From an uncultured Campylobacterales bacterium (GTDB taxonomy: Bacteria > Campylobacterota > Campylobacteria > Campylobacterales > Sulfurimonadaceae), in assembly GCA_903892995.1 (NCBI GenBank), contig CAITKP010000063.1, forward strand, positions 68,719 through 132,718: 64,000 bases of DNA, in the 5' to 3' direction. A model generated the notes under the pieces. The model searched no databases, was not told the DNA's origin, and was given only the letters and a program-made list of their open reading frames with translations. Position numbers and translations under genes: made by a program. Shown piece by piece: positions 20,289 through 34,849 of the stretch; the stretch's first letter is position 1, and the number at the start of each line of letters is the position of its first letter.

Positions 20289-20489
20289 CCTTTTTCTCTC
20301 TTCTTTGTTACGAAATTACACCAAAGCAATAAATAAAATAAAATTGGTGTTTCTCTTCGTGACAAAGCACCATCTTGTTTACAAAAACTCTTCTTGCTTT
20401 AATACTCTTTTTGATATAGTGCTTTTAACTGTTTTTTCAACACTTATAGTGTAGTGTTTGATGACAAAAAATAAACGAAGGTAGGATGT

Positions 20490-20879
20490 ATGGAGCATAT
20501 TCACACTGCAAATACATATTTTGGGGTATTTGTACTATTTGCACTGACGTTTGGTGCGTTCTTCATGACGACGAATATTGCAAGACTAGTGAGTCGTGCA
20601 ATGGCAAAAAAAGATACTGAAAAGATAAAGCTCTCTGTCTATGAGTGTGGACCAGAGATCACAAAACAGCCAAATAGACTCTCTCCGCAGTTCTATCTGT
20701 TTGCACTTCTTTTTATTCTTTTTGATGTTGAGATCGTTTTTATGTTCCCATGGGCGGTAGATTTTAAATATCTTGGTTGGTTCGGATTCGTTGAGATGAT
20801 GACATTTATCTTATTGCTTGCAATTGGTTTTGTATATGCATGGAAAAAAGGAGCCCTAGAATGGCACAACATAAAGTAA
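20490..20879 (+). CDS. nuoA: NADH-quinone oxidoreductase subunit A
   Basis: 129 aa, three TM helices, YECG motif, and first position in the nuo operon. Confidence 0.9.
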
Positions 20880-21370
20880 ATTATACGCAAAATGCTGGTC
20901 TTCCAGTAGCACTTACGACGATTGACAAAGTAGTAAATTGGGGTCGTTCAAACTCACTTTGGGCACTTACTTACGGTCTTGCATGTTGTGGTATCGAGAT
21001 GATGGCTTCGGGGGCTTCTCGTTATGACTTCGACCGTTATGGTACTATTTTTAGAGCTTCTCCTCGTCAAGCGGATGTTATGATTGTAGCAGGAACTCTA
21101 ACGAAAAAACATGCTGAGTTTATCAAGCGTTTATATGATCAAATGACAGAGCCTAGATGGGTTATCTCTATGGGTTCATGCGCAAACACTGGCGGTATGT
21201 TTAATACATATGCAACAGTTCAAGGAGCGGATCGTATTATTCCAGTTGATCTTTATCTTCCAGGCTGTGCTCCACGTCCTGAAACGCTTCAATATGGCGT
21301 CATGCTTTTACAAAAAAAGATCCGTGCCGAAAAAGCGATTAAATCTCAAAAAGCTAAGAGGTTGATGTAA
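20861..21370 (+). CDS. nuoB: NADH-quinone oxidoreductase subunit B
   Basis: [18 protein letters not shown] and LPGCAPRPE are the N2 cluster ligands. I place the start at ATG 20861 (MAQHKVNY) rather than 20840. Confidence 0.9.
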
Positions 21371-22176
21371 TGAGAGCCTATACACCAAAAGATGATGTAC
21401 AAGCAAAAGCGTACTATACAGACAGATTTTATGTTGCACCTCAAGTCCCAAAACAAGATGTTTCAAGTGATGAAGTCTTTGCTACTGATTTAGAAGCGAT
21501 CAAAGCAAAGTTTGAAGTACTTGATGCTTATATTCAAGTAGAGCAGATGGTTGTTATCATCAATGCAAAAGATAACTATGGTGTACTAGAACTTCTTCGT
21601 GATGAACTAGAATATACACAGCTTTCAGAACTTAGTGCAATTGATTGGATTGCAAAAAGTGGAGAGTTTGAAGTTTTTTATCAAATGCTTTCGATGGGAA
21701 AAAGAAAACGTGTTCGCATTAAATGTTTCGTAGCTAAAGATGAAGCGATCAACAGCGTTGAAAAACTTTTCCGCTCTGCTGACTGGTCTGAGCGTGAGAT
21801 GTATGATATGTTTGGCTTACATGTAAACAATCACCCATTTTTAAAACGTATCTTGATGCCATACGATTGGGAAGGTCATCCTTTGCTTAAAACCTATCCT
21901 CTTGAGGGTGATGAGTTTGCTGCTTGGTATGAAGTGGACAAAATCTACGGTAAAGAAGCTCGTGATATCATCGGGCCTGAAATCCGTGATACAGCGCGCG
22001 TTGACCGTTATGATAGCGAGCGTTTTGCACGTCTTGGGCATGAAGTTCCAAAAGGTACGAAGATCACAGGAAATGAACCAAAAACTCCTCTTGCTTATCA
22101 AGAAGAGGGCGGCGTGTTTATGATTGACAGATTTGATGAAGAAAAATCAGTAATTATTACAGACAGGGATAGGTAA
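21370..22176 (+). CDS. nuoC: NADH-quinone oxidoreductase subunit C
   Basis: [14 protein letters not shown]...HP.LKRIL is the 30-kDa subunit signature. 268 aa. Confidence 0.9.
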
Positions 22177-22180
22177 GCTC

Positions 22181-23419
22181 ATGCAACATCAAAATAGATT
22201 AAGACCATTTTTTGAAAATATTACGTTTGATCGTGACGATAATGAGATGATCCTCAACTTTGGGCCACAACACCCATCGGCTCACGGTCAGTTACGCCTT
22301 ATGCTTCACCTCCAACAAGAGATGATTACAAAAGCACATCCAGATATCGGTTACCTTCACCGTGGTATGGAGAAGATGGCTGAGAATATGATCTACAACG
22401 AGTTTATGCCGACAACAGATCGTATGGATTATATAGCTTCGAGTTCAAATAACTATGGATTTGCACTTGCTGTTGAAAAGCTAATCGGTCTTGAAGTGCC
22501 TCGCCGTGCTAAAGTGATCCGTATGCTTCTTTTAGAGATAAATAGATTGATGTCTCACCTTTTTTGGTTGGCTACTACGGCGCTTGATATCGGTGCGATG
22601 ACAGTTTTCCTTTTTGCTTTCCGTGAACGTGAATATCTGATGGATCTTATCGAAGATTATTGTGGTGCTCGTTTGACACACTCAGCTATTCGTATCGGTG
22701 GTGTGCCTTTAGATATTCCAGATAATTTCATCGCAGATCTAAGAAAATTCCTAGATAAACTTCCAGAAAACATCAAAGATTATGAAGATCTTCTAGATAC
22801 AAACCGTATCTGGAGAATGAGAATGGAAGATGTTGGTGTGATCTCCAAAGAGATGGCGCTTTCATGGGGATGTACAGGTCCAATGCTTCGTGCAAGCGGT
22901 GTTGCTTGGGATATCCGTAAAGAGGAACCATACGAACTTTATAGTGAAGTAGAGTTTAAAGTTCCAGTTTCTGACAAGGGCGATAACTTTGCTCGCTACC
23001 GTATCTATATGGAAGAGATGAGACAATCTGTGCATATTCTTTACCAAGTAGCAGATATGTATGAAGCGACTATTGCAAATAACCAAACAGAATTGATGGC
23101 GCATGCACCAAAATATATCTCTGCTCCTAAGCTGGATATCATGACGCAAAACTACTCTTTGATGCAACATTTTGTGCTTGTCACTCAAGGTATGCGCCCA
23201 CCAGTTGGTGAAGTCTATATCCCAACAGAATCGCCAAAAGGTGAACTTGGATATTACATCAACTCTCAAGGCGGTCCATACCCATACCGTCTTAAATTAC
23301 GTGCACCATCATTTTGGCACACAGGAATTTTGACAGACTTACTTCCTGGGCATTATATTCCAGACGTTGTATCTATTATTGGTACTACGAACATCGTATT
23401 TGGAGAGGTTGACCGCTAA
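22181..23419 (+). CDS. nuoD: NADH-quinone oxidoreductase subunit D
   Basis: [21 protein letters not shown] and a C-terminal ...VFGEVDR. 412 aa. Confidence 0.95.
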
Positions 23420-23643
23420 TGAAAAGATATGATCTAAGACATTTAAAAAATGAGTTTGAGCCTAGAATGGCTGAGATACTAAAATCTCATCCAACTGGGG
23501 AAGTTGGAATATTTTTATTTGAGGTGGGTGATTTTACTCCTGTTCAGCGTTCAGCTGATTTAGTAAAAGAATCAGGATATGAGCTTTTAAACTCATTGAA
23601 ATTCAACGAAGTCGATTGGACTGTCGTAGTGAAAAAAAGTTAG
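23419..23643 (+). CDS. Small Cys-free protein in the NuoE position (C. jejuni Cj1575c-like placement)
   Basis: 74 aa, translationally coupled (TAATG) to nuoD. It contains no cysteine, so it cannot carry the NuoE 2Fe-2S cluster. The assignment rests on position only. Confidence 0.55.
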   Translation: MKRYDLRHLKNEFEPRMAEILKSHPTGEVGIFLFEVGDFTPVQRSADLVKESGYELLNSLKFNEVDWTVVVKKS

Positions 23644-23652
23644 GAACATATT

Positions 23653-25686
23653 GTGAGTAAAGTCTATTTTTCCACTTGGAATGGTGAATTTATCAACAAC
23701 ATAAACAAACCGCAAGATCAGTGGGAAGAATCAGCATACAACCTGCCAGCGCAGTATGATGACCATAGAGAATCAAAAGCATTCATCGGTTGGGATGGTG
23801 TAGCGATTTTTAATGCAGATGTGGATGTAATCCGCCTTGCAACTGAATATGCGGCACAATATCAGGTTTATTCTGAAGCGTGTGGACGCTGTGCACCCGG
23901 ACGTTGGGGTGGTAGAATTTTATATGATATGCTTGACAAAATCGCTCGCGGCGAGGGTGAACTCTCTGATATGGATCACCTCAAAGAGATCAGTCAAAGT
24001 ATGCAGATCACTTCAAAATGTGAAATTGGCAAAACAGTGCCAAATCCTATTTTGGACATTATGACCCATTTTGAAGATGAATTTCTTACATGTATTAATG
24101 AAAAAAAAGCATCAAAACATTACGATGCAACTATCAACTACATTGCTAAAATAACAGCTCCATGTACGGATGCGTGCCCAGCTCATGTTGATATCCCTGG
24201 ATATATCGAGGGTGTAAGAGATTTACGCTTTGATGATTCACTTATGGCAACACGTCAAACGATGCCACTCGCGCATACATGTGGGCGCGTTTGTCCTCAC
24301 CCATGTGAGAGTGCGTGTCGTAGAACAAATCTTGATGAACCGATCTCGATCATGGAACTCAAGCGCCTTGGTGCTGACTATGAAACAGATCATGGCTTTG
24401 GCTTTTTTCATCCGTTAGAGAAAAAACCGAGTATTGGCAAAAAAGTCGCAGTTATCGGTGCTGGACCTGCGGGGCTTACAACAGCTTATTACCTGGCACT
24501 TGAGGGAATTGATGTTGATGTGTATGAAGAACTCCCTGTATTGGGCGGTGAAGTCGCTGTTGGTGTACCAGAGTACCGTATGCCAATCGATAAATACAAC
24601 AAAGATATTGATTGTGTGAAAGACCTTGGTGTAAATTTCATTGTTAACTCAAAAGTAACAGCAGATATGATGCGTCAATTTGAAAATGATTATGATGCTG
24701 TCATGGTTGCAACGGGAACTAGAATCTCTAAAAAAGTGTATTGTGATAATGAACGTGCTGAGATAAAAGGGTACTGGGGAGCGATCGATTTCCTTGATAA
24801 AGTAAACCTTTTTGAAAAGTATGGTTATACGATAAGCAAAGAGGAGCAAGAAGAAAACCTTTTGACGACAGATTATGTGGATTTGACTGGTAAAACAGTT
24901 GTCTGTGTCGGTGGTGGATTTACTTCTATGGACGTTGTTCGCTGTTCAATCCGTGCGAATGCAAAAAAAGTATATATGATCTACCGTCGTGATGAAAAGA
25001 CGATCATTGGTAACACAACATATGAAGAGTATCACGAAGCGGTTGAAGAGGGTGTTGAGTTTTTATTCCACTCTGCAGTCGCTGAGATGAGAGATGAAGA
25101 TAATATCTTAAAATCTCTGCTTATAGACAAGTTTGAACTCGTTCCAGATCCAAATGGCGGTCGTGCTCAACTTTTAAAAGTTGAGGGTGCTTCTTATGAG
25201 ATCGAAGCGGATTATCTTGTTCCTGCTGTAAGTCAGAGTGCGGACTTGAAACTTCTTCCTTCTGAGTGGGAGATCGAGATGACTTCGTGGGCGACTATTA
25301 AGACAAATGGAAAAGATTATATGACATCTCGCAAAGGTATTTTTGCTTCAGGTGATTGTGAATATGGTCCAATGACGATTGTTAATGCAGTTGGTCAAGC
25401 AAAACGTGCGGCTTCTGTGATGGCAAGATATGTACAAACAGGTGAAGTAAGTTTGAGCGATGATGAGATCATGGAAGATCACCTACGTAAACTTCGCGTT
25501 TATGATAAAAAAGAGAAAATCAAAGGTTGGCTTCCAGGGTTACCACGTGAAGTGAGTGTCAAACTTGATGTTGATGATCGCAAAACAAACAATAAAGAGG
25601 TCAATCTTGGATTTACACAAGAGGAAGCTTTAAGTGAAGCAGATCGTTGTATGCGATGTTATTATATCGCTATGACAGCAGTGTAG
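23653..25686 (+). CDS. Protein in the NuoF position: NuoF-C-terminal-like domain fused to a GltD/NfnB-type Fe-S FAD/NAD(P)H oxidoreductase
   Basis: EACGRCAPGRWGG...SKCEIGKTVPNPI resembles the NuoF 4Fe-4S domain with the third Cys replaced. CTDACPAHVDIP...CGRVCPHPCESAC is the GltD-type Fe-S region. VAVIGAGPAGL and VVCVGGGFTSMD are two Rossmann motifs, and ASGDC is also present. 677 aa. Confidence 0.7.
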   Translation: MSKVYFSTWNGEFINNINKPQDQWEESAYNLPAQYDDHRESKAFIGWDGVAIFNADVDVIRLATEYAAQYQVYSEACGRCAPGRWGGRILYDMLDKIARGEGELSDMDHLKEISQSMQITSKCEIGKTVPNPILDIMTHFEDEFLTCINEKKASKHYDATINYIAKITAPCTDACPAHVDIPGYIEGVRDLRFDDSLMATRQTMPLAHTCGRVCPHPCESACRRTNLDEPISIMELKRLGADYETDHGFGFFHPLEKKPSIGKKVAVIGAGPAGLTTAYYLALEGIDVDVYEELPVLGGEVAVGVPEYRMPIDKYNKDIDCVKDLGVNFIVNSKVTADMMRQFENDYDAVMVATGTRISKKVYCDNERAEIKGYWGAIDFLDKVNLFEKYGYTISKEEQEENLLTTDYVDLTGKTVVCVGGGFTSMDVVRCSIRANAKKVYMIYRRDEKTIIGNTTYEEYHEAVEEGVEFLFHSAVAEMRDEDNILKSLLIDKFELVPDPNGGRAQLLKVEGASYEIEADYLVPAVSQSADLKLLPSEWEIEMTSWATIKTNGKDYMTSRKGIFASGDCEYGPMTIVNAVGQAKRAASVMARYVQTGEVSLSDDEIMEDHLRKLRVYDKKEKIKGWLPGLPREVSVKLDVDDRKTNNKEVNLGFTQEEALSEADRCMRCYYIAMTAV

Positions 25687-25696
25687 GGAGGATTGG

Positions 25697-27952
25697 ATGA
25701 GTAATTTGATTAATTTTACCATTGATGGAAAAGCCGTAACTGCGAAGAAGGGCGAGACGATTTTAACGGTCGCACGCCGTGAGGGGATCTATATCCCAAC
25801 AATGTGTTACATCTCTAAAACGACTCCATGTGCATCTTGTCGTATGTGTGTTGTTGAAGCTGAGGGTGTTGAGGGGTTTGTACTTTCATGTAATACACCT
25901 CCGACAAACGGAATTGCGATCACAACAAACACGCAAGCGCTTGAAAATGAACGAACAAACATCATGAAGCTTTATGATGTAAATCACCCATTAGAGTGTG
26001 GTGTTTGTGATAAATCTGGAGAGTGTGATCTTCAAAACAAGACTTTAGAGTTTAATGTTTCAAAGCAAAACTTTTCGGCACGTGACCAACATAGAAAAAT
26101 CGAAAACTGGGGGCTTATCAGTTATGACCCAGCTCTTTGTATTTTATGTGAAAAATGTGTGCATGTTTGTAATGAAGTGATAGGCGATGATGCGATTGAT
26201 CTGCAATTTGGCGGATATAAATCAAAAGTTATTCCTAAAAACTCTGATACTCTTGATTGTACATATTGTGGTGAGTGTATTGCGGTTTGTCCTGTTGGCG
26301 CACTTATCAGCACTAATTTTAAATACAGTGCAAATGCTTGGGAGCTTACTCGTGTTCCTGCGACTTGTGCGCACTGTTCGGGTGGATGTTCTTTAGAGTA
26401 TGAAACACGCCATACAGGAATTTCATCAAAAGATAATTCGATCTATAGAGTAAAAAATAATTTTGAATTTAGCTCACTCTGTGGTGCTGGACGTTTTGGT
26501 TTTGGTTTTGATAATAAAACGACAAAAAATCCTGATGCATTTGCAAGAGCATTTGATGCGATTGTAAATGCAAAAGCTATCCGTTTTAGTTCGATGATCA
26601 CAAATGAAGAGGCTCTTCTTTTACAAAGATTAAAAGAGAGTTTGGGGATTAAACTTTATAACGAAGATGCAAGAAAATATGCTTTATTTATGGAAGCGTA
26701 TGCAAGCATTAGCGGTAAAAAACATCACAGTGCAACACTTGAAGCAGTGAAACAAGCAGATGCTGTTATCGTGATTGGTTCTATGATTGCAACTGATAAT
26801 CCAGCTGTAAGATATGCAATGACGACTGCTGCAAAACATAATGGTGCAAAGATTATCTATGCACACCCGATAGAAGATGCTTTAATGCAAAATACTATCA
26901 CTCAGTTTTTAAAATATGAAGTGGGAACTGAAGAGGGAGTGTTAGCACTAATAGCTAAATATCTTCTTGCTGATTGCGAATTAGGCAGTGACGAAAAAGC
27001 CTTTTTTGATGCTTTAGATGATGGATACTTAAGTGCTGAGAGTAATATTGGCGAAGAGGAACTCTCTTTGATGATGAAATCATTAATGAGAACCAAAAAC
27101 AGAGTTTTAGTAGTTGGAAATGATCTTATTGCACACAAAGAAGCGAAAAATATTGCAAAGCTTGTGGCGGTCATAGAAAAATATAGCGATATCTCTGTTT
27201 TAGTCGTACCGCGCGATGTAAACACTCTTGGTGTAAGCCTTACATGTAAGCTAGATTGTGATGATAACTCTTTAGAAAATGTTGTCGGATATAACGAAAA
27301 AGGAAGTTTTGTTATAGCGAGTTTAGCTGGAGCTGATCTGGCAACTCCTGCACTCAATCAGCAAGAGGGAACATTTGTGAGTATCGATAACAGAGTGATT
27401 CCTACGAATGCTGCTCTTGCTTTTGATGGTTATGAACTTCATGATCTTGCAAAAGAGTTGGGCGTTGGCAAGCAAAATACGATCGATTTTACAAAAGAGT
27501 TGCCACAAGAAAGTGGATTTAAGGCACTTGAATTTGATGTCTTAGAGAACTTTTTAGCGCCACTTGGAGAAGATGTTCGCGGATATATGCTTGATCAAGT
27601 AGAGGTTGCTATGGATGGATCACTCGATGAGCTTGACGCATTACCTGAGTTTAATGGAACGATTATTTACAACGTGAATCCTGTCTTGCAGTTTAATGCT
27701 TATACAAATATAGCTTCACAGTTGGAGCGTGATACAACACTTCGAGGCTCTGCTCAATTTGGTGCAGCTGCACGAATAAGTGATGGAGATCAAGTAGAGA
27801 TCAGTTTTGGCGACAAAACATTTGTGCGTACTTTTAAACAAGAAGAGAGTTTAAAGGGAACAGTGGCGCTCAATCCTACATTTGATTTAGAGGGTAATAT
27901 GGAAAGTTATAGATTTCAAAAATCTAAGATTGTGAGAGTGAATCATGAGTAG
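25697..27952 (+). CDS. NuoG-like Fe-S subunit, paralogue 1 (751 aa)
   Basis: N-terminal 2Fe-2S ferredoxin fold (CYISKTTPCASCRMC), HPLECGVCDKSGECDLQ, CILCEKCVHVC, CTYCGECIAVCPVGAL and CAHCSGGC, followed by a molybdopterin-oxidoreductase-like body. Confidence 0.8.
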   Translation: MSNLINFTIDGKAVTAKKGETILTVARREGIYIPTMCYISKTTPCASCRMCVVEAEGVEGFVLSCNTPPTNGIAITTNTQALENERTNIMKLYDVNHPLECGVCDKSGECDLQNKTLEFNVSKQNFSARDQHRKIENWGLISYDPALCILCEKCVHVCNEVIGDDAIDLQFGGYKSKVIPKNSDTLDCTYCGECIAVCPVGALISTNFKYSANAWELTRVPATCAHCSGGCSLEYETRHTGISSKDNSIYRVKNNFEFSSLCGAGRFGFGFDNKTTKNPDAFARAFDAIVNAKAIRFSSMITNEEALLLQRLKESLGIKLYNEDARKYALFMEAYASISGKKHHSATLEAVKQADAVIVIGSMIATDNPAVRYAMTTAAKHNGAKIIYAHPIEDALMQNTITQFLKYEVGTEEGVLALIAKYLLADCELGSDEKAFFDALDDGYLSAESNIGEEELSLMMKSLMRTKNRVLVVGNDLIAHKEAKNIAKLVAVIEKYSDISVLVVPRDVNTLGVSLTCKLDCDDNSLENVVGYNEKGSFVIASLAGADLATPALNQQEGTFVSIDNRVIPTNAALAFDGYELHDLAKELGVGKQNTIDFTKELPQESGFKALEFDVLENFLAPLGEDVRGYMLDQVEVAMDGSLDELDALPEFNGTIIYNVNPVLQFNAYTNIASQLERDTTLRGSAQFGAAARISDGDQVEISFGDKTFVRTFKQEESLKGTVALNPTFDLEGNMESYRFQKSKIVRVNHE

Positions 27953-30431
27953 TATAACTATAAATATTGATGGTCGCGAGATACAGACACAAGAGGGAGA
28001 GTTTATATTAAATGCCGCTCGTGCAAATGATATATTTATTCCAGCGATCTGTTATCTTACGCGTTGTAGTCCAACACTTGCATGTCGTATCTGTCTTGTA
28101 GAAGCTGATGGCAAGCAAGTTTATGCGTGTAATGCTAAAGCAAAAGATGGGATGAATATCACGACTTCAACTGAAAATATCGAAGCTGAACGTCGAGCGA
28201 TTATGGAAGTTTATGATGTAAACCATCCATTACAGTGCGGTGTTTGTGATCAATCAGGAGAGTGTGAACTTCAAAACTACACTTTAGAGATAGGCGTTGA
28301 TTCTCAAAGCTATGCTATCAAAGATGTAGAGCGCGAAGTTAAAGATTGGGGACATATTCATTACGATCCAGCTCTTTGTATAGTTTGTGAGAGATGTGTG
28401 ACTGTCTGTAAAGATATGATCGGAGATAACTCTTTAAAAACTGTTGCACGCGGGTCTGATGCAATCGATAATGAGTATAAAGAGAGTATGCCAAAAGATG
28501 CATACGCAATGTGGAATAAACTCAATAAATCTGTAATTGGTCTCACATCTGGCGCAGAGATGCTTGATTGTACTTCATGTGGAGAGTGTGCGGCTGTTTG
28601 TCCAGTTGGTGCGCTTGTTGATACAGATTTTATGTATAAATCAAACGCTTGGGAACTAAAACAAGTCCCTGCGACATGTGGTCACTGTAGTGCTGGATGC
28701 CAGATTACTTATGATGTGAAACACACAAGTATAGAAAACTCAGAAGATAAGATCTATCGCGTGATGAACGAGTGGAACTATGTTTCTCTTTGTGGTGCTG
28801 GACGTTATGGATTTGATTATGATAACAAAGTACAAGCAAAAGATGAAGTAGCATTTACAAATGCGATCGCAGCATTTAAAAAAGCGGACACAGTAGCATT
28901 TACTTCTACGATCACAAATGAAGAGGCTTTTATTCTTCAATCTTTAAAAGAGAAGTTTGGATATAAACTTGTAAATCCTGAAGCAAAGGCGTTCCAAACA
29001 TTTTTAAATGATTACAGCGAAGTAAGTGGAACATCTTTGTACGGAAGTGATCTTCATGAAGCACATGCAGCTGATTTTATCGTGTCAGTAGGAACAGCAC
29101 TTAAAAGTGACAATCCAAATGCAAGATATGCGTTTAATAATTCTATGAGTATGAACAAAGGAGCGGGACTATATTTTCATCCTCTCAAAGATCCTATTAT
29201 AGATGGCATGGGCAAAAGTGTACTAAGTATTTCTCATGCACCACTTGCAGAAGAGGCTGTTTTGTATCTATTGCTTGATCTTTTTGCTGACAAATCAAAA
29301 CTTCCAGCTTCGGTAGTTGAGTATATCGCATCATTCCATTCAGAAAAAACTATTACGGTTGAAGAAACTATTAAAGAAAAAGTTGTTGAGATAGTAAAAG
29401 TCAAAAAAGTGAATGAAGAAACAGGCGAAGAGGAAGAGGTAGAAGAGGAAAAAACTTCTATGGTTCCTAAAAAGATCTCAAAAGAGGTACAAGTCGATGA
29501 AAACCGTCTTTTAGAGATTGTTGATGCACCGAAAAACTTTACAGAGAGTTTAGAAAAATTCTTAGCGAAAAAAGAGAGTTTTTCACTGATTGTTGGACCT
29601 GATCTTTATACACATCCAAGAGCAAAAAATCTAGCGCGTCTTGTTGCACTTTTAGAGAAATATAGTGCATTTAAACTTGTAATGATTCCAAGTTTAACAA
29701 ATACACTTGGTGTTTCACTTATTTGTGATCTTGATGAGACTCGAGGAAACTACACTATTGGCTACAACACGAAGGGTGATTTTACTTTAAGCGCACTGGG
29801 TGATGGCGATCTTGATATGCCAGCAATCAATCAGCAAGAGGGAACACTCACAAGTATAGATAAGCGAGTAAATCCAACAAATGCGGCAGTTGCTTATAAA
29901 GGTTATGAGCTTAATGATATCGCAAATGCACTGGGATTGGATGCTAAATTGACAATCGATTATACGTCAAAATTGCCTACATGTAAGGGTTTTAAATCTG
30001 AGCATTTTGATAATCTTCCAAACCGTTATGAAAATGATGGAACTGAAGTGAGAGGATATTGTTTAGATACGATTACAAAAGATCTCCTGAGCGAGGTTGC
30101 AGTAGAATCGATATTGGAACCTAAGCTAGAAGGAAGTATTATATATCTAGTAAATCCAGTCCGTCAGTTTAGTGAATTTACAAATATTTCTGCAAACCTC
30201 AAAGAGGAGAGTGGCATCTATATGAGCGAGTCATACCTTAAATCAAGTGGGTTCAATGAGGGTGATATCGTGAAAGTAAAAACACAAAATGGTGAGTTGA
30301 GTGCAAAAATTATCTGTGATAACAAAATCGAAGGAGAGATTGCGACTCTTCCAACTTTTGATTCAAATCTAAATTCACAGGCTCTCTTTAGCGGTTACCG
30401 CTTTAGTACAGCTACAATACAAGGGGTGTAA
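27945..30431 (+). CDS. nuoG: NADH-quinone oxidoreductase subunit G (paralogue 2, 828 aa)
   Basis: Same cluster motifs as paralogue 1 (CYLTRCSPTLACRIC, HPLQCGVCDQSGECELQ, CIVCERCVTVC, CTSCGECAAVCPVGAL, CGHCSAGC). It overlaps paralogue 1 by 8 nt and directly precedes nuoH. Confidence 0.85.
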   Translation: MSSITINIDGREIQTQEGEFILNAARANDIFIPAICYLTRCSPTLACRICLVEADGKQVYACNAKAKDGMNITTSTENIEAERRAIMEVYDVNHPLQCGVCDQSGECELQNYTLEIGVDSQSYAIKDVEREVKDWGHIHYDPALCIVCERCVTVCKDMIGDNSLKTVARGSDAIDNEYKESMPKDAYAMWNKLNKSVIGLTSGAEMLDCTSCGECAAVCPVGALVDTDFMYKSNAWELKQVPATCGHCSAGCQITYDVKHTSIENSEDKIYRVMNEWNYVSLCGAGRYGFDYDNKVQAKDEVAFTNAIAAFKKADTVAFTSTITNEEAFILQSLKEKFGYKLVNPEAKAFQTFLNDYSEVSGTSLYGSDLHEAHAADFIVSVGTALKSDNPNARYAFNNSMSMNKGAGLYFHPLKDPIIDGMGKSVLSISHAPLAEEAVLYLLLDLFADKSKLPASVVEYIASFHSEKTITVEETIKEKVVEIVKVKKVNEETGEEEEVEEEKTSMVPKKISKEVQVDENRLLEIVDAPKNFTESLEKFLAKKESFSLIVGPDLYTHPRAKNLARLVALLEKYSAFKLVMIPSLTNTLGVSLICDLDETRGNYTIGYNTKGDFTLSALGDGDLDMPAINQQEGTLTSIDKRVNPTNAAVAYKGYELNDIANALGLDAKLTIDYTSKLPTCKGFKSEHFDNLPNRYENDGTEVRGYCLDTITKDLLSEVAVESILEPKLEGSIIYLVNPVRQFSEFTNISANLKEESGIYMSESYLKSSGFNEGDIVKVKTQNGELSAKIICDNKIEGEIATLPTFDSNLNSQALFSGYRFSTATIQGV

Positions 30432-30433
30432 GT

Positions 30434-31423
30434 ATGGATATGGCATATTTAATTGAAACGATTGTAAAAATCGTTGTGATTATGTTGATTTTTTCTGCTT
30501 TGGCGGGACTAGGAACATATTTTGAACGTAAGGTTCTTGCATTTATGCAACGCCGTCTTGGGCCGATGAATGTTGGACCATACGGACTCTTACAGGTTGC
30601 CGCTGATGGGATCAAGCTATTTACAAAAGAGGATATTATCCCGACAAATGTTGTAGCTCCTATCTTTAAGTTTGCACCAGTCATCACAGCAGCTACAGCA
30701 TTTATGGCAGCTGCTGCGATTCCATTTTGGCCTCAATTTACAGTGTTTGGCTATACGGTTCATCCCATTGTTGCAGATACTGAGATTGGTCTATTGTATG
30801 TAATGGCTGTAATGGCGATTGGTCTTTATGGCTTACTACTTGGTGGTATGGCTTCTGCAAATAAGTTTTCACTTATCTCAGCAGCACGAACCGCTGCGAT
30901 CTTTGTTTCTTATGAAGTTGTAACAGGTTTATCTCTTCTTGCACCGATCATGGTTGTTGGCTCTCTTTCTTTGATAGATTTCAACAACTACCAAGTTGGA
31001 GGAGTAAGTCACTGGTTAGTATGGTCTCAGCCAGTTGCATTCATCCTTTTTTGGATTGCTGCATTTGCTGAAACAGGGCGTACACCGTTTCACTTGATCG
31101 CAAACGATCACGAGATTATTGATGGTTTTGGTACTGAGTATTCAGGGATGAGATGGGGACTTTTCTTTATTGGTGAATATGCAAATATGTTCTTTATCTC
31201 TTTTGTAATCGCACTTGTTTTTCTTGGTGGATTTGGAGACGGTGGATTAGGCGGAGCATTGGCATTGATTGCAAAAGTAGCATTTTTCTTCTTCTTTTTC
31301 TTATGGACAAGAGCGGCTTGGCCAGATGTAAGACCAGATCAATTGATGTGGTTATGTTGGAAAGTGCTTATGCCATTAGCTGTAATAAACGTAGTCGTAA
31401 CCGGCTTAGTGATGATGTTTTAA
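30434..31423 (+). CDS. nuoH: NADH-quinone oxidoreductase subunit H
   Basis: 329 aa polytopic membrane protein. RKVLAFMQRRLGPMNVGPYGLLQ and AETGRTPFHL/EYSGM are ND1 signatures. Confidence 0.95.
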   Translation: MDMAYLIETIVKIVVIMLIFSALAGLGTYFERKVLAFMQRRLGPMNVGPYGLLQVAADGIKLFTKEDIIPTNVVAPIFKFAPVITAATAFMAAAAIPFWPQFTVFGYTVHPIVADTEIGLLYVMAVMAIGLYGLLLGGMASANKFSLISAARTAAIFVSYEVVTGLSLLAPIMVVGSLSLIDFNNYQVGGVSHWLVWSQPVAFILFWIAAFAETGRTPFHLIANDHEIIDGFGTEYSGMRWGLFFIGEYANMFFISFVIALVFLGGFGDGGLGGALALIAKVAFFFFFFLWTRAAWPDVRPDQLMWLCWKVLMPLAVINVVVTGLVMMF

Positions 31424-31429
31424 GGGGCG

Positions 31430-32047
31430 ATGATGAGTATAGAACAGTTTAAAAACAGAAATGTTAGCGATGACTACTTCTTAGTAGATATCGAGGATTA
31501 TCCGACTGATGGTTGGGGAAAATTCAAACGGGTTGTAAAGCGTACATTCCAAGGGGAACTTTTTGTGGGTCTTTGGGTTGTGCTTCGTGAGATGATCAAA
31601 TTTGATATCCATACAGTGCAGTATCCAAAAGAGAAGATGCCAATTGGCCCACGTTACCGCGCGGTTCATGAGATGAAACGTCTTTGGGAGTCTGGTACTG
31701 AGAGATGTATTGGATGTGGACTTTGTGAGAAGATCTGTATCTCTGATTGTATTCGTATGGAGACTCGCATCGATGAGAACTCTCGTAAAGAGGTGAGTGA
31801 ATATAGTATCAATCTTGGACGTTGTATCTTCTGTGGATACTGTGCAGAGGTTTGTCCTGAGCTTGCGATTACTCATGGCGGACGTTATGAGAATGCAAGT
31901 GAACAAAGAGCACACTTTGTAATGTATGAAGATATGCTAACACCGATCGATATGCTCAAAGCTGGTCAACAGCAAGAGTTTGATGGTTTTGGTGCGATCA
32001 CACCACATGAAGATGAGCGTGTCAAAAAGACACCGCTTGCATATTAA
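31430..32047 (+). CDS. nuoI: NADH-quinone oxidoreductase subunit I
   Basis: Two 4Fe-4S ferredoxin motifs, CIGCGLCEKIC and CIFCGYCAEVCP. Confidence 0.9.
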   Translation: MMSIEQFKNRNVSDDYFLVDIEDYPTDGWGKFKRVVKRTFQGELFVGLWVVLREMIKFDIHTVQYPKEKMPIGPRYRAVHEMKRLWESGTERCIGCGLCEKICISDCIRMETRIDENSRKEVSEYSINLGRCIFCGYCAEVCPELAITHGGRYENASEQRAHFVMYEDMLTPIDMLKAGQQQEFDGFGAITPHEDERVKKTPLAY

Positions 32048-32056
32048 GGAGTAACA

Positions 32057-32629
32057 ATGTTTGAAGCTATCGCTTTTTATCTGTTTGCAATATTGACTGC
32101 TGTTATGTTTTATATCACTGTTACAACAAAACAAGCACTTTTTGCACTCACTGCATTGGCAGCTGGGATGATTTTTATATCTGCTTTCTTCTTTATTTTA
32201 GGAGCAGATTTTCTGGGTGTTGTTCAGATTATCGTTTACACTGGTGCTGTAATGGCACTTTATGCATTTGGTATGATGTTCTTTGATACAACAAGAGAGT
32301 TAAAAGAGAAGAATGGATCATCATTGATTACTGCGGGTCTTTCAATCTTATCTGCAGTTTTTGTTGTACTGATTTTTGTAGCACCAATAGTAAGTACAAA
32401 AGTACAAGTCACTGCAGCAGCAATCGAGGGTGCAACAAATTCACAATCTGTAGGTATGGTACTTTTTACGAAGTATCTTGTTCCTTTTGAACTAGCAGCT
32501 GTCATGTTGCTTGTTGCTATGATCGCTGGAATTGTCTTAGCTGGTAAAAAAATGGACAGATCACTTACACTTATGGGTGAAGAAGAGATTATGCTTGCTG
32601 AAGAAGCTAGAAGAAAGGTGCTACTATGA
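32057..32629 (+). CDS. nuoJ: NADH-quinone oxidoreductase subunit J
   Basis: 190 aa, five TM helices, VVQIIVYTGAVMAL motif and operon position. Confidence 0.85.
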   Translation: MFEAIAFYLFAILTAVMFYITVTTKQALFALTALAAGMIFISAFFFILGADFLGVVQIIVYTGAVMALYAFGMMFFDTTRELKEKNGSSLITAGLSILSAVFVVLIFVAPIVSTKVQVTAAAIEGATNSQSVGMVLFTKYLVPFELAAVMLLVAMIAGIVLAGKKMDRSLTLMGEEEIMLAEEARRKVLL

Positions 32630-32934
32630 TGGAAATCGGTTTAACACACTATCTCATACTCTCAACAGTTCTATTTTCAATAGGATTGCTTGGTGTTATG
32701 AGACGTAAAAATCTTTTAATGCTGTTTTTTGCTACAGAGATTTTACTCAATGCTGTGAATGTTGGATTTGCAGCTATTTCACACTATTACAACGATCTTA
32801 CAGGACAGATGTTTGCATTTTTTATCATTGCAATTGCTGCTTCTGAAGTTGCAGTAGGGCTTGGGCTTTTGATTGTTTGGTATAAACGCCACGGTAATAT
32901 TAATCTTGACGAAATGTCATCAATGAGAGGATAA
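32626..32934 (+). CDS. nuoK: NADH-quinone oxidoreductase subunit K
   Basis: 102 aa, three TM helices, conserved membrane Glu residues (TEILLNA, ASEVAVGL) and a 4-nt overlap with nuoJ. Confidence 0.9.
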   Translation: MMEIGLTHYLILSTVLFSIGLLGVMRRKNLLMLFFATEILLNAVNVGFAAISHYYNDLTGQMFAFFIIAIAASEVAVGLGLLIVWYKRHGNINLDEMSSMRG

Positions 32935-32938
32935 AAAA

Positions 32939-34846
32939 ATGGAATTGTACTTATATATAGCACTCTTTTCACCGCTTGTTGGTGCTCTGTTTGCGGGAGT
33001 TTTTGGAGCTTCTCCAAAAACATTATTGACAGGGGTTGTAAACTCGTCATTACTTTTTGCATCTTTCGTTTCAAGTGCGGTACTTCTAGGTTATGTTCTT
33101 GATGGACATACTGTACATGTAGAGATGATGGAGTGGATGGCAACTGGAAATCTTTACATTCCTTTTGGCTTTGTAGTTGATCAAGTAAGTGTAACTATGA
33201 TGATGGTTGTGACAACAGTTTCAACTATTGTACACATCTATTCAATCGGTTATATGGATCATGATAAAGGGTTTAACCGTTTCTTCTCATACCTTTCAGC
33301 ATTCGTTTTTTCGATGATGGTTTTAGTTATGAGTGATAACTTTGCTGGTCTTTTCATTGGTTGGGAAGGTGTTGGTCTTTGTTCATGGCTTTTAATTGGA
33401 TTTTGGTACCATAAAGAGATCGCTACTTGGGCAGCAAATGAAGCTTTCATTATGAACCGTATTGCTGACCTTGGGATGTTAATCGGTATATTCCTAGTTT
33501 ACTGGAACACTGGAACACTTCAATATGATGAAGCGTTTAAAGTAATGCCTACTTTAGATACAAATACTTTGATTTATATTGGTATTTTCCTTTTTGTTGG
33601 TGCTATGGGTAAATCTGCACAGTTTCCACTTCATACTTGGCTTGCAGATGCGATGGAGGGTCCAACTCCTGTTTCTGCATTGATTCACGCAGCGACAATG
33701 GTAACTGCTGGTGTTTACTTAGTAGTTCGTGCAAATCCTTTATATGACACAATTCCAGAAATGGGACTATTTATTGCAAGTTTAGGTGCATTTGTTGCAA
33801 TGTTTGCTGCTTCTATGGCGCTTGTAAATCGTGATATGAAACGTATTATTGCGTATTCAACACTCTCTCAACTTGGATATATGTTTGTTGCAGCAGGACT
33901 AGGTGCTTACTGGGTTGCACTTTTTCACTTGATGGCTCACGCATTTTTTAAAGCGCTTTTATTTTTAGGTGCTGGAAATGTTATGCACGCTATGAGTGAT
34001 GAACTCGATCCATTTAAAATGGGTGGATTACGCAAGCAGATGAAGGGCACATTTATCCTTATGACTTTAGCTTCAGTTGCATTAGCTGGTATCTTTCCAC
34101 TTGCTGGTTTCTTCTCTAAAGATGCCATACTTGAGGTTGGTTTTGTAACAAACCACTATGTTATCTACTCTGTATTATTGATTACAGCAGGTTTAACAGC
34201 GTTTTACTCTTTCCGTCTTATTGCACTTATTTTTCACGGTGAAGAGAGATATAAACTGTTTGGTTTTCATCCACATGAAGCGTATAAATTTATGCTAATC
34301 GCAATGAGTCCACTTGCAGTTTTAGCTGTGATTGCAGGATCATTTAAAACAACTTATTTTGATATGGTTACTCAGATCTTGCCAAAGACTGAGTACCATA
34401 TTCACTCTGAAATAGTTGAATGGGTGATGATTTTAGGAACTCAAATATTCGTAATGCTTGCAATTTTTTATGCATATAAAAAATATGTAAACTTTAAAGG
34501 TGAAGATAAAGAGTTTGAAAAACGTCTTTGCTATAAAATCTTGATTAATCAATACTATATTCCTTACATGTACGAGGAGTTTATTTCAAAACCATATAGA
34601 GAACTATCTACAATATTTTGGAAAAAAGTTGATCTTAAAGTTGTTGATGCAACAGTTGATTGTATCGCAAATGGAATTTATAAAGCGGGTGAAAATACTC
34701 GTGAAATGCAAGACGGTAACCTTTCAAGTATGCTTAGATGGATGGTCGTAGGGACGGTGTTACTGTTGTCATTAGCGGTTGCTTTTGGTATGGCAGTGAG
34801 ATATGCGGATGAAATTTCAGCTGTATTATCAGGTTTAGGAGCTTAA
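32939..34846 (+). CDS. nuoL: NADH-quinone oxidoreductase subunit L
   Basis: 635 aa antiporter-like subunit. GWEGVGLCSWLLIGFW, GKSAQFPLHTWLADAMEGPTPVSALIHAATMV, and a C-terminal lateral helix plus TM. Confidence 0.95.
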   Translation: MELYLYIALFSPLVGALFAGVFGASPKTLLTGVVNSSLLFASFVSSAVLLGYVLDGHTVHVEMMEWMATGNLYIPFGFVVDQVSVTMMMVVTTVSTIVHIYSIGYMDHDKGFNRFFSYLSAFVFSMMVLVMSDNFAGLFIGWEGVGLCSWLLIGFWYHKEIATWAANEAFIMNRIADLGMLIGIFLVYWNTGTLQYDEAFKVMPTLDTNTLIYIGIFLFVGAMGKSAQFPLHTWLADAMEGPTPVSALIHAATMVTAGVYLVVRANPLYDTIPEMGLFIASLGAFVAMFAASMALVNRDMKRIIAYSTLSQLGYMFVAAGLGAYWVALFHLMAHAFFKALLFLGAGNVMHAMSDELDPFKMGGLRKQMKGTFILMTLASVALAGIFPLAGFFSKDAILEVGFVTNHYVIYSVLLITAGLTAFYSFRLIALIFHGEERYKLFGFHPHEAYKFMLIAMSPLAVLAVIAGSFKTTYFDMVTQILPKTEYHIHSEIVEWVMILGTQIFVMLAIFYAYKKYVNFKGEDKEFEKRLCYKILINQYYIPYMYEEFISKPYRELSTIFWKKVDLKVVDATVDCIANGIYKAGENTREMQDGNLSSMLRWMVVGTVLLLSLAVAFGMAVRYADEISAVLSGLGA

Positions 34847-34849
34847 TCG

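What the first reader, a model, noticed from the sequence alone, without database searches (positions are those of the whole stretch)
23419..25686. Complex I input module replaced: Cys-free 74-aa protein plus a NuoF-tail / GltD-type flavoprotein chimera
nuoA-D and nuoG-N are canonical, but there is no NuoE or NuoF. In the NuoE slot is a 74-aa protein with no cysteine, so it has no 2Fe-2S cluster. In the NuoF slot is a 677-aa protein. Its N-terminal part resembles only the C-terminal 4Fe-4S domain of NuoF, with the CxxCxxC reduced to CGRCAPG. The rest is a glutamate-synthase-small-subunit/NfnB-type module, with CTDACP...CGRVCPHPCESAC Fe-S sites and two Rossmann folds (VAVIGAGPAGL, VVCVGGGFTSMD). 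Published work on C. jejuni established that its complex I lacks NuoE/F and takes electrons from flavodoxin through two unrelated small proteins. The architecture here is different. Together with the following NuoG-like gene it resembles Geobacter SfrAB-type NAD(P)H oxidoreductases. This suggests an FAD-based NAD(P)H (or bifurcating) entry into complex I. I do not know whether this variant has been characterised.
Basis: partly seen in the sequence, partly recalled or inferred. Interest (0 to 1): 0.65.

Follow-up and report, generated by a model that had tools for sequence, protein, structure and literature searches.

The report
NADPH-type flavoprotein module in Sulfurimonas complex I
In this Sulfurimonas genome the NADH-binding subunits of respiratory complex I are replaced by a small cysteine-free protein, an FAD/iron-sulfur flavoprotein predicted to bind NADPH, and an extra NuoG copy; the arrangement is real but was already described for Sulfurimonas denitrificans, and no biochemical test of it was found.

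Summary
The window is from a Sulfurimonas species. Between nuoD and nuoH lie a Cys-free 74-aa gene, a 677-aa gene and two NuoG paralogues (G1 751 aa, G2 828 aa). No NuoE domain or NuoF FMN domain is present.

The 677-aa protein joins the NuoF C-terminal four-helix domain to a GltD/NfnA-type module. The NuoF part keeps only 3 of the 4 N3-cluster Cys. The GltD part has 8 Cys for two [4Fe-4S] clusters, an FAD site and a YRR motif that matches the NADPH-phosphate-binding residues of NfnB.

One correction: the 74-aa protein is not unrelated to the Campylobacter/Helicobacter case. It belongs to PF16514 and is a homologue of H. pylori HP1264 (PDB 2LXR).

A 2019 preprint on S. denitrificans (Suden_1824, two NuoG) described this arrangement and proposed reverse-running complex I producing NAD(P)H and ferredoxin. 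I found no biochemistry.

- The module also occurs in Wolinella and other Campylobacterota. A similar one sits in a Deltaproteobacteria nuo operon.
- It was lost several times within Sulfurimonas, always together with G1's Fe-S domains.
- H. pylori HP1265 is homologous to the C-terminal half of G1.

The parts
20490..23419 (+). nuoA (20490-20879), nuoB (20840-21370), nuoC (21370-22176), nuoD (22181-23419): canonical complex I core genes upstream of the module
   Evidence: NCBIfam equivalog models all above curated cut-offs; ORFs
23419..23643 (+). 74-aa Cys-free protein in the NuoE slot (HP1264/'NADH-UOR_E' family); TusA-like alpha/beta fold, not NuoE-like
   Evidence: PF16514 E 2e-37; PDB 2LXR HP1264 E 2e-20; 0 Cys; AF2 pLDDT 87, and after 2lxr the Foldseek hits are TusA/YeeD with TM ~0.75
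23653..25686 (+). 677-aa iron-sulfur flavoprotein in the NuoF slot (SfrB/FdhB(NADP+)-type: NuoF C-terminal domain + GltD/NfnA-type module)
   Evidence: Pfam PF10589+PF14691+PF07992, no PF01512; PDB sequence hits; AF2 pLDDT 92.7, pTM 0.91; Foldseek best hits 9bov_A, 8oh5_C, 9n5u_A
23728..24111 (+). Residues 26-153: homologue of the NuoF/HydB C-terminal four-helix N3-cluster domain. C77, C80 and C123 are kept; the third Cys of CxxCxxC is Gly83
   Evidence: Alignments to 8a6t_B, 7t2r_B and 9n5u_B; C77/C80/G83/C123 invariant in 68 Campylobacterota orthologues
24154..24393 (+). Residues 168-247: GltD/DPD-type domain with Cys 171, 175, 210, 214, 218, 222. Together with C666/C669 these give 8 Cys for two [4Fe-4S] clusters
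   Evidence: PF14691 E 7e-23; Cys invariant in orthologues
24439..25401 (+). Residues 263-583: FAD-binding (GAGPAGL) and NADP(H)-binding (GGGFTSMD ... Y444-R445-R446) Rossmann domains
   Evidence: PF07992 E 2e-25; YRR aligned to T. maritima NfnB (4ylf_B); invariant; residues named as NADP-phosphate binders in 10.1101/717884
25648..25659 (+). C-terminal CMRC (C666, C669): the two Fe-S ligands that lie at the N-terminus in NfnB. Here they follow the flavin domains, as in NfnA/StnC
   Evidence: Alignments to 9bov_A and 4ylf_B; invariant
25697..27952 (+). NuoG paralogue G1 (751 aa). It has all NuoG Fe-S motifs, with compact SfrA/FDH-like spacing. It is the likely partner of the 677-aa flavoprotein
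   Evidence: NF006305 907 bits; motif alignment; its Fe-S N-terminus is lost together with the flavoprotein in 7 loci
27945..30431 (+). NuoG paralogue G2 (828 aa), orthologue of Helicobacter NuoG. It carries the Campylobacterota-type insert between the two ferredoxin motifs. It is the likely core NuoG
   Evidence: NF006305 1186 bits, full length; insert shared with Hp NuoG; retained in all loci, including those without the flavoprotein
30434..37908 (+). nuoH, I, J, K, L, M and an ORF in the nuoN position (36400-37908)
   Evidence: NCBIfam for H-M; nuoN assigned by position and length only

Best explanation
The 74-aa protein, the 677-aa flavoprotein and the first NuoG paralogue (G1) form an accessory NADP(H)-linked electron module of a Campylobacterota-type complex I. 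The second paralogue (G2) is the core NuoG of that complex.

The 677-aa subunit is an SfrB/GltD-type Fe-S flavoprotein. The proposed electron path is: NADP(H), then FAD, then two all-Cys [4Fe-4S] clusters, then a three-Cys N3-like cluster in the retained NuoF four-helix domain, then the Fe-S chains of G1/G2, then NuoI/NuoB, then menaquinone. In canonical enzymes the NuoF four-helix domain is the part that packs against the NuoG N-terminus.

Sulfurimonas is a sulfur/hydrogen-oxidising autotroph that fixes carbon by the reverse TCA cycle. Its enzyme would therefore mostly run backwards, using proton-motive force to push electrons from menaquinol to NADP+.

Shown here: domain content, cofactor-ligand conservation, operon position, co-transcription, and co-loss of the flavoprotein with G1's Fe-S domains.

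Inferred, not shown: physical attachment to complex I, NADPH rather than NADH specificity, occupancy of the N3-like site, and direction of operation.
For: - Domain assignment, and absence of the FMN domain and NuoE.
- All 8 GltD-type Cys, the FAD motif and Y444-R445-R446 are invariant in 68 Campylobacterota orthologues and in 35 distant family members.
- The NuoF-tail domain is as conserved as the rest of the protein (0.90 mean column identity).
- The structure model is confident (pLDDT 92.7, pTM 0.91). Its best fold matches are the GltD-like module of NfnA/StnC, where NADPH reduces this FAD and electrons pass one at a time through a NuoG-like Fe-S chain to the N3-equivalent cluster.
- The genes sit in a tight operon (TAATG overlap, 9-10 nt gaps). 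Metatranscriptome contigs span nuoA to the 677-aa gene and nuoD to the 677-aa gene.
- The order X-F-G1-G2 between nuoD and nuoH is conserved in most of the 71 Sulfurimonadaceae loci that carry the flavoprotein gene (some are cut by a contig end), and in Wolinella succinogenes, L081 and L090. L089 shows X-F up to the contig end.
- A 34%-identical homologue sits between nuoD and the only NuoG-like gene of a Deltaproteobacteria nuo operon.
- In 7 Sulfurimonas loci that lack the flavoprotein, G1 has also lost its Fe-S N-terminus or is gone, while G2 is intact.
- The same functional proposal was made for Suden_1824 (10.1101/717884).
Against: - No biochemical or structural data for any member were found. 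No Campylobacterota complex I chain is in the PDB copy beyond the HP1264 NMR structure.
- The N3-like site has only 3 Cys in every Campylobacterota orthologue (Gly83 invariant), so that cluster may be absent, a 3Fe-4S, or completed by another ligand.
- The module is dispensable in several Sulfurimonas lineages.
- Stand-alone SfrB/SfrA-like pairs exist outside nuo operons, so the pair could act as a soluble enzyme.
- The rest of the genome could not be searched for separate nuoE/nuoF.
Confidence: 0.6

Rival explanations
1. Bifurcating or confurcating complex I. The enzyme splits electrons from menaquinol, driven by pmf, between NADP+ (at the 677-aa protein) and ferredoxin. The GltD-type FAD or a NuoG cluster would be the branching point. 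This is the hypothesis of McNichol & Sievert.
For: The protein is a homologue of NfnB, whose FAD bifurcates in NfnSL. The rTCA cycle needs both NADPH and reduced ferredoxin, and no Rnf or known bifurcating enzyme is reported in S. denitrificans. Two NuoG copies with extra clusters are present. The related C. jejuni enzyme uses flavodoxin.
Against: There is no NfnS/NfnA-type small subunit and no FMN 'flavobicluster' site in the operon; all 15 ORFs from nuoA to nuoN are accounted for. The closest solved relatives are NfnA/StnC, where this FAD is a simple NADPH site and bifurcation occurs at the FMN subunit that is missing here. Lineages without the flavoprotein keep X and G2, so any ferredoxin/flavodoxin site need not involve it.
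Confidence: 0.2
2. The 677-aa protein and G1 form a soluble SfrAB-like NADPH:acceptor oxidoreductase (for example NADPH:ferredoxin). It is only co-encoded with nuo and is not a subunit of complex I.
For: Stand-alone sfrB/sfrA-like gene pairs exist (L084/L085). The pair is lost repeatedly without loss of the nuo core. SfrAB of Geobacter is a soluble enzyme (own knowledge; mentioned).
Against: The pair has a fixed position inside the operon between the NuoE-slot gene and nuoG2 in Sulfurimonas, Wolinella and other Campylobacterota. In the Deltaproteobacteria nuo operon the partner is the only NuoG-like gene, so there it must serve complex I. A G1 C-terminal remnant is kept in the slot after the flavoprotein is lost, and in H. 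pylori. The genes are co-transcribed with nuoA-D.
Confidence: 0.15
3. It is the beta subunit of an NADP+-dependent formate dehydrogenase, as many automatic annotations say, with G1 as the catalytic alpha subunit.
For: JGI/NCBI names 'formate dehydrogenase (NADP+) beta subunit' and 'formate dehydrogenase' on close homologues.
Against: G1 scores 907 bits on the NuoG model NF006305 but only 34 bits on Fdh-alpha TIGR01591 (cut-off 666). It has only a sub-threshold Molybdopterin hit and no Molydop_binding domain. By contrast, the partners of P0242 and P0245 have full molybdopterin domains.
Confidence: 0.03

Closest known systems
Sulfurimonas denitrificans non-canonical complex I (Suden_1824 with NuoG copies Suden_1823/1822), described in bioRxiv 10.1101/717884
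   Same: An NfnB/GltD-like protein in the NuoF slot. It is followed by a short NuoG and then a long NuoG, and the long copy has an insert near residues 175-204. The NADP-phosphate residues and Fe-S Cys are conserved.
   Different: Nothing of substance; the window is from another Sulfurimonas species. The preprint does not mention the NuoF-tail domain with its 3-Cys site, the HP1264-family identity of the small protein, the repeated losses, or the link to HP1265.
C. jejuni / H. pylori complex I with Cj1575c/HP1264 and Cj1574c/HP1265 in place of NuoE/F (flavodoxin-dependent)
   Same: The same NuoE-slot family (PF16514; 50% identity to HP1264). G2 is the orthologue of Helicobacter NuoG. HP1265 is homologous to the G1 C-terminal half (E 3e-12 to 5e-14).
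   Different: Helicobacter has no flavoprotein and no Fe-S-bearing second NuoG. HP1265 shows no similarity to the 677-aa protein. C. jejuni itself was not examined here.
Geobacter SfrAB / Moorella-type FdhB(NADP+): a ~650-680-aa NuoF-tail + GltD protein paired with a NuoG/FDH-alpha-like protein
   Same: Identical three-domain architecture (PF10589+PF14691+PF07992), found in ~650-aa relatives at 32-41% identity. These are encoded next to a NuoG/FDH-like gene.
   Different: Many of those relatives keep the full CxxCxxC...C N3 motif. In the two outside contexts examined (the P0242 and P0245 loci) the partner has complete molybdopterin domains, and one of the two pairs lies outside a nuo operon. 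G. sulfurreducens SfrB itself was not available for direct comparison.
Bfu-type NfnABC / StnABC transhydrogenases (PDB 9BOV, 8OH5, 9N5U)
   Same: Best sequence and fold matches for residues ~165-670, including the C-terminal CxxC. The NuoF-tail matches the four-helix bundle of NfnB/StnB. NADPH, then FAD, then an Fe-S chain, then an N3-like cluster is an experimentally supported route there.
   Different: In those enzymes the GltD module is fused to the NuoG-like subunit, and the four-helix bundle belongs to a full FMN-containing NuoF-like subunit with a NuoE partner. Here the FMN, NAD and NuoE parts are missing, and the module is encoded inside a membrane complex I operon.

Membership tests
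PF16514 NADH-UOR_E / HP1264 family (NuoE-slot protein of Campylobacterota) | Full-length match to the 74-position family profile; ~75-aa protein encoded directly after nuoD | tested here: met
   E 2e-37, 127.7 bits versus cut-off 25, positions 1-74 of 74; 2LXR E 2e-20; position in operon
NuoE (24-kDa subunit) | Thioredoxin-like fold with four Cys binding the N1a [2Fe-2S] cluster (PF01257) | tested here: not met
   0 Cys; no PF01257 hit; predicted fold is TusA/YeeD-like
NuoF (51-kDa subunit) | FMN/NADH-binding Rossmann-like domain (PF01512) and SLBB domain | tested here: not met
   No PF01512 or SLBB hit. NuoF models match only positions 292-408 of 410, at 57 bits versus cut-off 559
NuoF (51-kDa subunit) | C-terminal four-helix domain with the CxxCxxC...C ligands of cluster N3 | tested here: inconclusive
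   The domain is present (PF10589 E 1e-20), but only 3 of 4 Cys remain. The third is Gly83 in all 68 orthologues
GltD / NfnB / SudA / DPD-type Fe-S flavoprotein module | PF14691 domain plus PF07992 FAD/NAD(P) domains, and eight Cys for two [4Fe-4S] clusters | tested here: met
   Cys 171, 175, 210, 214, 218, 222, 666, 669
GltD / NfnB / SudA / DPD-type Fe-S flavoprotein module | NADPH specificity (Tyr-Arg-Arg after the second Rossmann strand, as in T. maritima NfnB Y310/R311/R312) | tested here: met
   Y444-R445-R446 aligned to 4ylf_B and invariant. This is sequence evidence only; cofactor preference was not measured
SfrB / FdhB(NADP+)-type subunit | A single ~650-680-aa chain with NuoF-tail + GltD module, encoded next to a NuoG/FDH-alpha-like partner | tested here: met
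   Architecture shared with P0242, P0245 and P0249 and with their neighbours. Direct comparison with G. sulfurreducens SfrB was not done
NfnSL (NfnAB) bifurcating transhydrogenase | Small NfnS/NfnA subunit (FAD + [2Fe-2S]) partnering the GltD-like subunit | tested here: inconclusive
   None among the 15 operon ORFs. The rest of the window and genome was not screened for it
Formate dehydrogenase (alpha subunit role for G1) | Mo/W-bisPGD-binding domains passing Fdh-alpha models | tested here: not met
   TIGR01591 34 bits versus cut-off 666; Molybdopterin hit below Pfam cut-off; no Molydop_binding domain
Subunit of complex I (physical membership) | Co-purification or a structure with the NuoB/C/D/G/I arm | not testable with these tools
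   Only operon position, co-transcription and co-evolution are available

The most novel reading that the evidence does not exclude
The X-F-G1-G2 arrangement is the fuller, probably older, state of the Campylobacterota complex I input module. The Helicobacter (and by extension Campylobacter) 'NuoF-slot' protein is a degenerate C-terminal relic of the second NuoG paralogue, left after the NADP(H) flavoprotein and G1's Fe-S domains were lost. That reduction has happened several times within Sulfurimonas. Together with the SfrB-like gene in a Deltaproteobacteria nuo operon, this would define a cross-phylum class of NADP(H)-linked complex I built from an SfrAB-like plug-in. As far as I found, the homology of HP1265 to NuoG and this loss series have not been reported.
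Probability: 0.5. Interest if true: 0.65.

Novelty: already known. Interest (0 to 1): 0.45.

Why it matters
How rTCA-cycle autotrophs such as Sulfurimonas and Sulfurovum make NADPH and low-potential reductant from sulfur compounds is unresolved. These organisms dominate carbon fixation in sulfidic and hydrothermal habitats. A complex I whose NADH module is swapped for an NADPH-type flavoprotein would be the missing pmf-driven route.

It would also be a rare example of a respiratory complex I coupled to NADP(H). In addition, it would explain the origin of the odd flavodoxin-dependent enzyme of the pathogens C. jejuni and H. pylori.

The same operon is present in Wolinella succinogenes, which can be cultured and which I recall (own knowledge, not checked here) is genetically tractable. 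The hypothesis should therefore be directly testable.

Tried and rejected
- The genome-contig scan anchored on the 74-aa family returned only Sulfurimonadaceae among its best 80 of 528 hits. It could not map the whole phylum. I filled gaps with single look-ups.
- Weerakoon & Olson 2008 (PMC2223568) is not held. Its content is cited only through later papers.
- Literature searches for NuoX/NuoY/Cj1574c/HP1265 and for Wolinella nuo returned mostly noise and nothing on this module.
- HP1265 versus the 677-aa protein shows no similarity. The idea that the Helicobacter protein is a remnant of the NuoF-tail domain is rejected.
- NuoX as a degenerate NuoE is rejected: the predicted fold is TusA-like.
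- The 'formate dehydrogenase' annotation is rejected.
- Coordinates of the AF2 model are not exposed to scripts. Distances between the predicted cluster sites could not be computed.
- No multimer prediction was possible.
- The AAA ATPase upstream of nuoA is syntenic in 52 of 74 loci, but its presence does not follow that of the flavoprotein, so I do not count it as part of the module.


Full report
**Observation**

The window has about 37% G+C and comes from a Sulfurimonas species. More than 100 proteins that are 85-100% identical to the 677-aa product are held in public data, and the named ones are from Sulfurimonas.

A tight plus-strand operon runs in this order:
- nuoA (20490), nuoB, nuoC, nuoD (to 23419)
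- a 74-aa ORF (23419-23643)
- a 677-aa ORF (23653-25686, GTG start)
- two NuoG-like ORFs: G1 at 25697-27952 (751 aa) and G2 at 27945-30431 (828 aa)
- nuoH to nuoM, then an ORF in the nuoN position (to 37908)

nuoA-D and nuoH-M pass curated NCBIfam cut-offs. The 74-aa start shares a base with the nuoD stop codon (TAATG). The other junctions are 2-10 nt gaps or short overlaps. The 74-aa protein has no Cys.

**Domain content of the 677-aa protein**

Pfam finds PF10589 (NuoF Fe-S region, residues 73-145), PF14691 (168-247) and PF07992 (263-583). It finds no FMN domain PF01512. NuoF models match only their last ~120 positions.

Alignments to HydB, NfnB and HoxF chains show that residues 26-153 correspond to the last strands of the preceding domain plus the four-helix bundle that carries cluster N3. 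ESCGKCxPCR is replaced by EACGRCAPGR, and the fourth Cys is retained at C123.

Residues ~165-670 match the GltD-like module best in the NfnA/StnC subunits of Bfu-type transhydrogenases, followed by NfnB, GltD and DPD. This holds by sequence and by fold. The AlphaFold model has pLDDT 92.7 and pTM 0.91.

Eight Cys (171, 175, 210, 214, 218, 222, 666, 669) fit two [4Fe-4S] clusters. The last two lie at the C-terminus, as in NfnA/StnC, rather than at the N-terminus as in NfnB. Y444-R445-R446 aligns with the NADP-phosphate-binding residues of T. maritima NfnB.

In 68 Campylobacterota orthologues all of these residues are invariant, and so is Gly83. The three-Cys state of the N3-like site is therefore a fixed feature of the clade and not a local defect. 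The NuoF-tail domain is as conserved as the flavin domains.

A complete NuoE plus NuoF N-terminal query finds nothing in the window or in +-10 kb of 80 related loci.

**The 74-aa protein**

It is a full-length member of PF16514 (E 2e-37) and a homologue of H. pylori HP1264, whose NMR structure is PDB 2LXR (E 2e-20, 50% identity). Its predicted fold (pLDDT 87) matches 2LXR. The next matches are TusA/YeeD-type two-layer alpha/beta proteins at TM ~0.75, without their active Cys. It is not a thioredoxin-like NuoE.

The NuoE-slot protein is therefore the same family as in Helicobacter, and by annotation as in Campylobacter.

**What is already published**

bioRxiv 10.1101/717884 (2019) describes the same arrangement in S. 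denitrificans:
- Suden_1824 replaces NuoF and is a homologue of NfnB with conserved NADP(H) and Fe-S residues.
- Two NuoG copies follow, a short one and a long one with an insert near residues 175-204.
- The authors state the arrangement is universal in Sulfurimonas and Sulfurovum.
- They say Weerakoon & Olson 2008 had already noted non-canonical NuoEF and two NuoG in chemoautotrophs.
- They hypothesise a reverse-running complex I that reduces NAD(P)+ and ferredoxin.

I found no biochemical or structural study. The PDB copy holds no Campylobacterota complex I chain other than 2LXR. As a genomic feature this is therefore already known. As an enzyme it is uncharacterised.

**Family and distribution**

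In a search of 1.8 billion cluster representatives, the Sulfurimonas proteins collapse into one cluster. The next relatives are:
- a 962-aa version
- ~650-aa proteins with the same three domains (32-41% identity, full length)
- complete NuoE-NuoF-GltD fusions such as P0254
- NfnA/StnC-like proteins

The contexts examined were:
- The 962-aa version lies in a nuo operon after a PF16514 gene and before two long NuoG genes.
- Wolinella succinogenes DSM 1740 has nuoD, X (77 aa), a 649-aa homologue, G1 and G2.
- Two further Campylobacterota loci carry the X and flavoprotein genes. L090 continues with G1 and G2, whereas the L089 contig ends after the flavoprotein gene.
- An Arcobacter-like locus has only X followed by one NuoG.
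- H. pylori has X, HP1265 (328 aa, no Pfam hit) and one NuoG.
- A Deltaproteobacteria MAG has nuoABCD, a 663-aa homologue, one NuoG/FDH-like gene and nuoH onwards, without X.
- Another homologue forms a stand-alone pair with a NuoG/FDH-like gene.

Its recruitment into nuo operons is not limited to Campylobacterota.

**Comparative evidence for a module**

Of 80 Sulfurimonadaceae loci anchored on the 74-aa gene:
- 71 show the 677-aa gene, with G1 and G2 following wherever the contig allows.
- 2 end too early to tell.
- 7 lack the flavoprotein gene although the contig continues.

In those 7 loci G2 is intact, but G1 is reduced or absent:
- reduced to a 271-316-aa C-terminal fragment in L042, L053 and L059
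- reduced to a ~510-aa fragment without the N-terminal Fe-S domains in L064 and L080
- absent in L068 and L070

The fragments are far closer to G1 than to G2. In a neighbour-joining tree of G2 the 7 loci fall in at least four separate places, which suggests repeated loss. This is a single-protein NJ tree and is not a robust phylogeny.

G2 shares with Helicobacter NuoG the ~25-30-residue insert between the two ferredoxin-type motifs. G1 has the compact spacing seen in SfrA/FDH-like partners.

I read this as follows. G2 is the core NuoG. The flavoprotein works with the Fe-S part of G1, and the pair is an accessory module.

**Link to Helicobacter**

HP1265 aligns with the C-terminal half of window G1 (residues 382-509 and 643-725, E 3e-12). 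It also aligns with Wolinella G1 (E 3e-7), and with the L042 G1 fragment over 240 residues (E 5e-14). It does not align with G2, H. pylori NuoG or the flavoprotein at E<1e-3.

The Helicobacter 'NuoF-slot' protein therefore looks like a relic of a second NuoG paralogue. The flavoprotein-less Sulfurimonas loci represent intermediate states. C. jejuni Cj1574c was not available for testing.

**Expression**

Freshwater metatranscriptome assemblies contain the locus at similar depth from nuoA to nuoH. Single contigs span 20489-24174 and 22418-25580. This is consistent with co-transcription. Contig data cannot exclude DNA carry-over.

**Mechanism**

The best-supported reading is a non-bifurcating NADP(H) site. 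Electrons would pass from NADP(H) to FAD, through two [4Fe-4S] clusters and the N3-like site, into the G1/G2 Fe-S chains, and on to NuoI, NuoB and menaquinone.

The closest solved precedent is NfnABC. There NADPH reduces the homologous FAD, and electrons travel singly through a NuoG-like chain to the N3-equivalent cluster.

Given the organism's autotrophic rTCA metabolism, the physiological direction is probably menaquinol to NADP+, driven by proton-motive force.

The rivals are:
- a ferredoxin-coupled bifurcating version, as in the preprint's hypothesis
- a soluble SfrAB-like enzyme that is merely co-encoded
- the annotated formate dehydrogenase, which G1's model scores exclude

**Limits**

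- Physical association with complex I, cofactor content, nucleotide specificity and direction are all inferred.
- The genome outside the 64-kb window could not be searched.

Noticed in passing
L086:8234-9220 (H. pylori HP1265) versus window 25697-27952: The H. pylori 'NuoF-slot' protein HP1265 has no Pfam hit. It is homologous to the C-terminal half of the first NuoG paralogue G1 (E 3e-12 to window G1; E 5e-14 to a Sulfurimonas G1 fragment). It shows no similarity to G2, to Hp NuoG or to the flavoprotein. It looks like a relic of a lost second NuoG.
   Followed up: partly
L042:4790-5740, L053:9190-10026, L059:10236-11051, L064:10226-11770, L080:10192-11724, L068, L070: Seven Sulfurimonas loci lack the 677-aa gene. 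They carry only a C-terminal G1 fragment (271-316 aa or ~510 aa), or nothing, between the 74-aa gene and G2. They are scattered in a G2 tree, which suggests at least four independent losses.
   Followed up: partly
L082:3455-13992 and L083 (Deltaproteobacteria MAG): This nuo operon has a 663-aa SfrB-like flavoprotein (34% identical to the window's) between nuoD and a single NuoG/FDH-like gene with full molybdopterin domains. It has no PF16514 gene. This is a possible independent NADP(H)-linked complex I in another phylum.
   Followed up: no
L081:6525-15605: A 962-aa version of the flavoprotein carries a ~300-residue low-complexity insert (rich in Ser, Asn, Gln, Lys) between the NuoF-tail and the GltD module. 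It is followed by unusually long NuoG paralogues (1046 and 1012 aa).
   Followed up: no
L087:12445-14815 (Wolinella succinogenes BX571656.1): The second NuoG paralogue is called as two ORFs (309 and 428 aa) separated by ~150 nt. This could be a frameshift, a sequencing error or a genuine split.
   Followed up: no
window 23881-24021 (C77, C80, G83, C123 of the 677-aa protein): The third Cys of the N3 motif is Gly in all 68 Campylobacterota orthologues. Some other relatives with the same Gly (P0242, P0244, P0249) have an extra Cys directly before the first one (CCxxC). Many SfrB-like relatives keep all four Cys. The fourth ligand here is unexplained.
   Followed up: partly
window 23419-23643: The 74-aa HP1264-family protein is predicted to have a TusA/YeeD-like fold (TM ~0.75) but lacks the sulfur-carrier Cys. 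Its role in complex I is unknown.
   Followed up: partly
window 18552-20288: A 578-aa AAA+ ATPase gene lies upstream of nuoA in 52 of 74 related loci, including an Arcobacter-like one (60% identity). Its presence does not follow that of the flavoprotein.
   Followed up: partly
window 20840-20879: The longest nuoB ORF overlaps nuoA by 40 nt. The true nuoB start may be further downstream.
   Followed up: no
window 37936-40296: A 786-aa DUF7494 + TPR protein is encoded directly after the nuoN-position ORF on the same strand. Whether it belongs to the operon was not examined.
   Followed up: no
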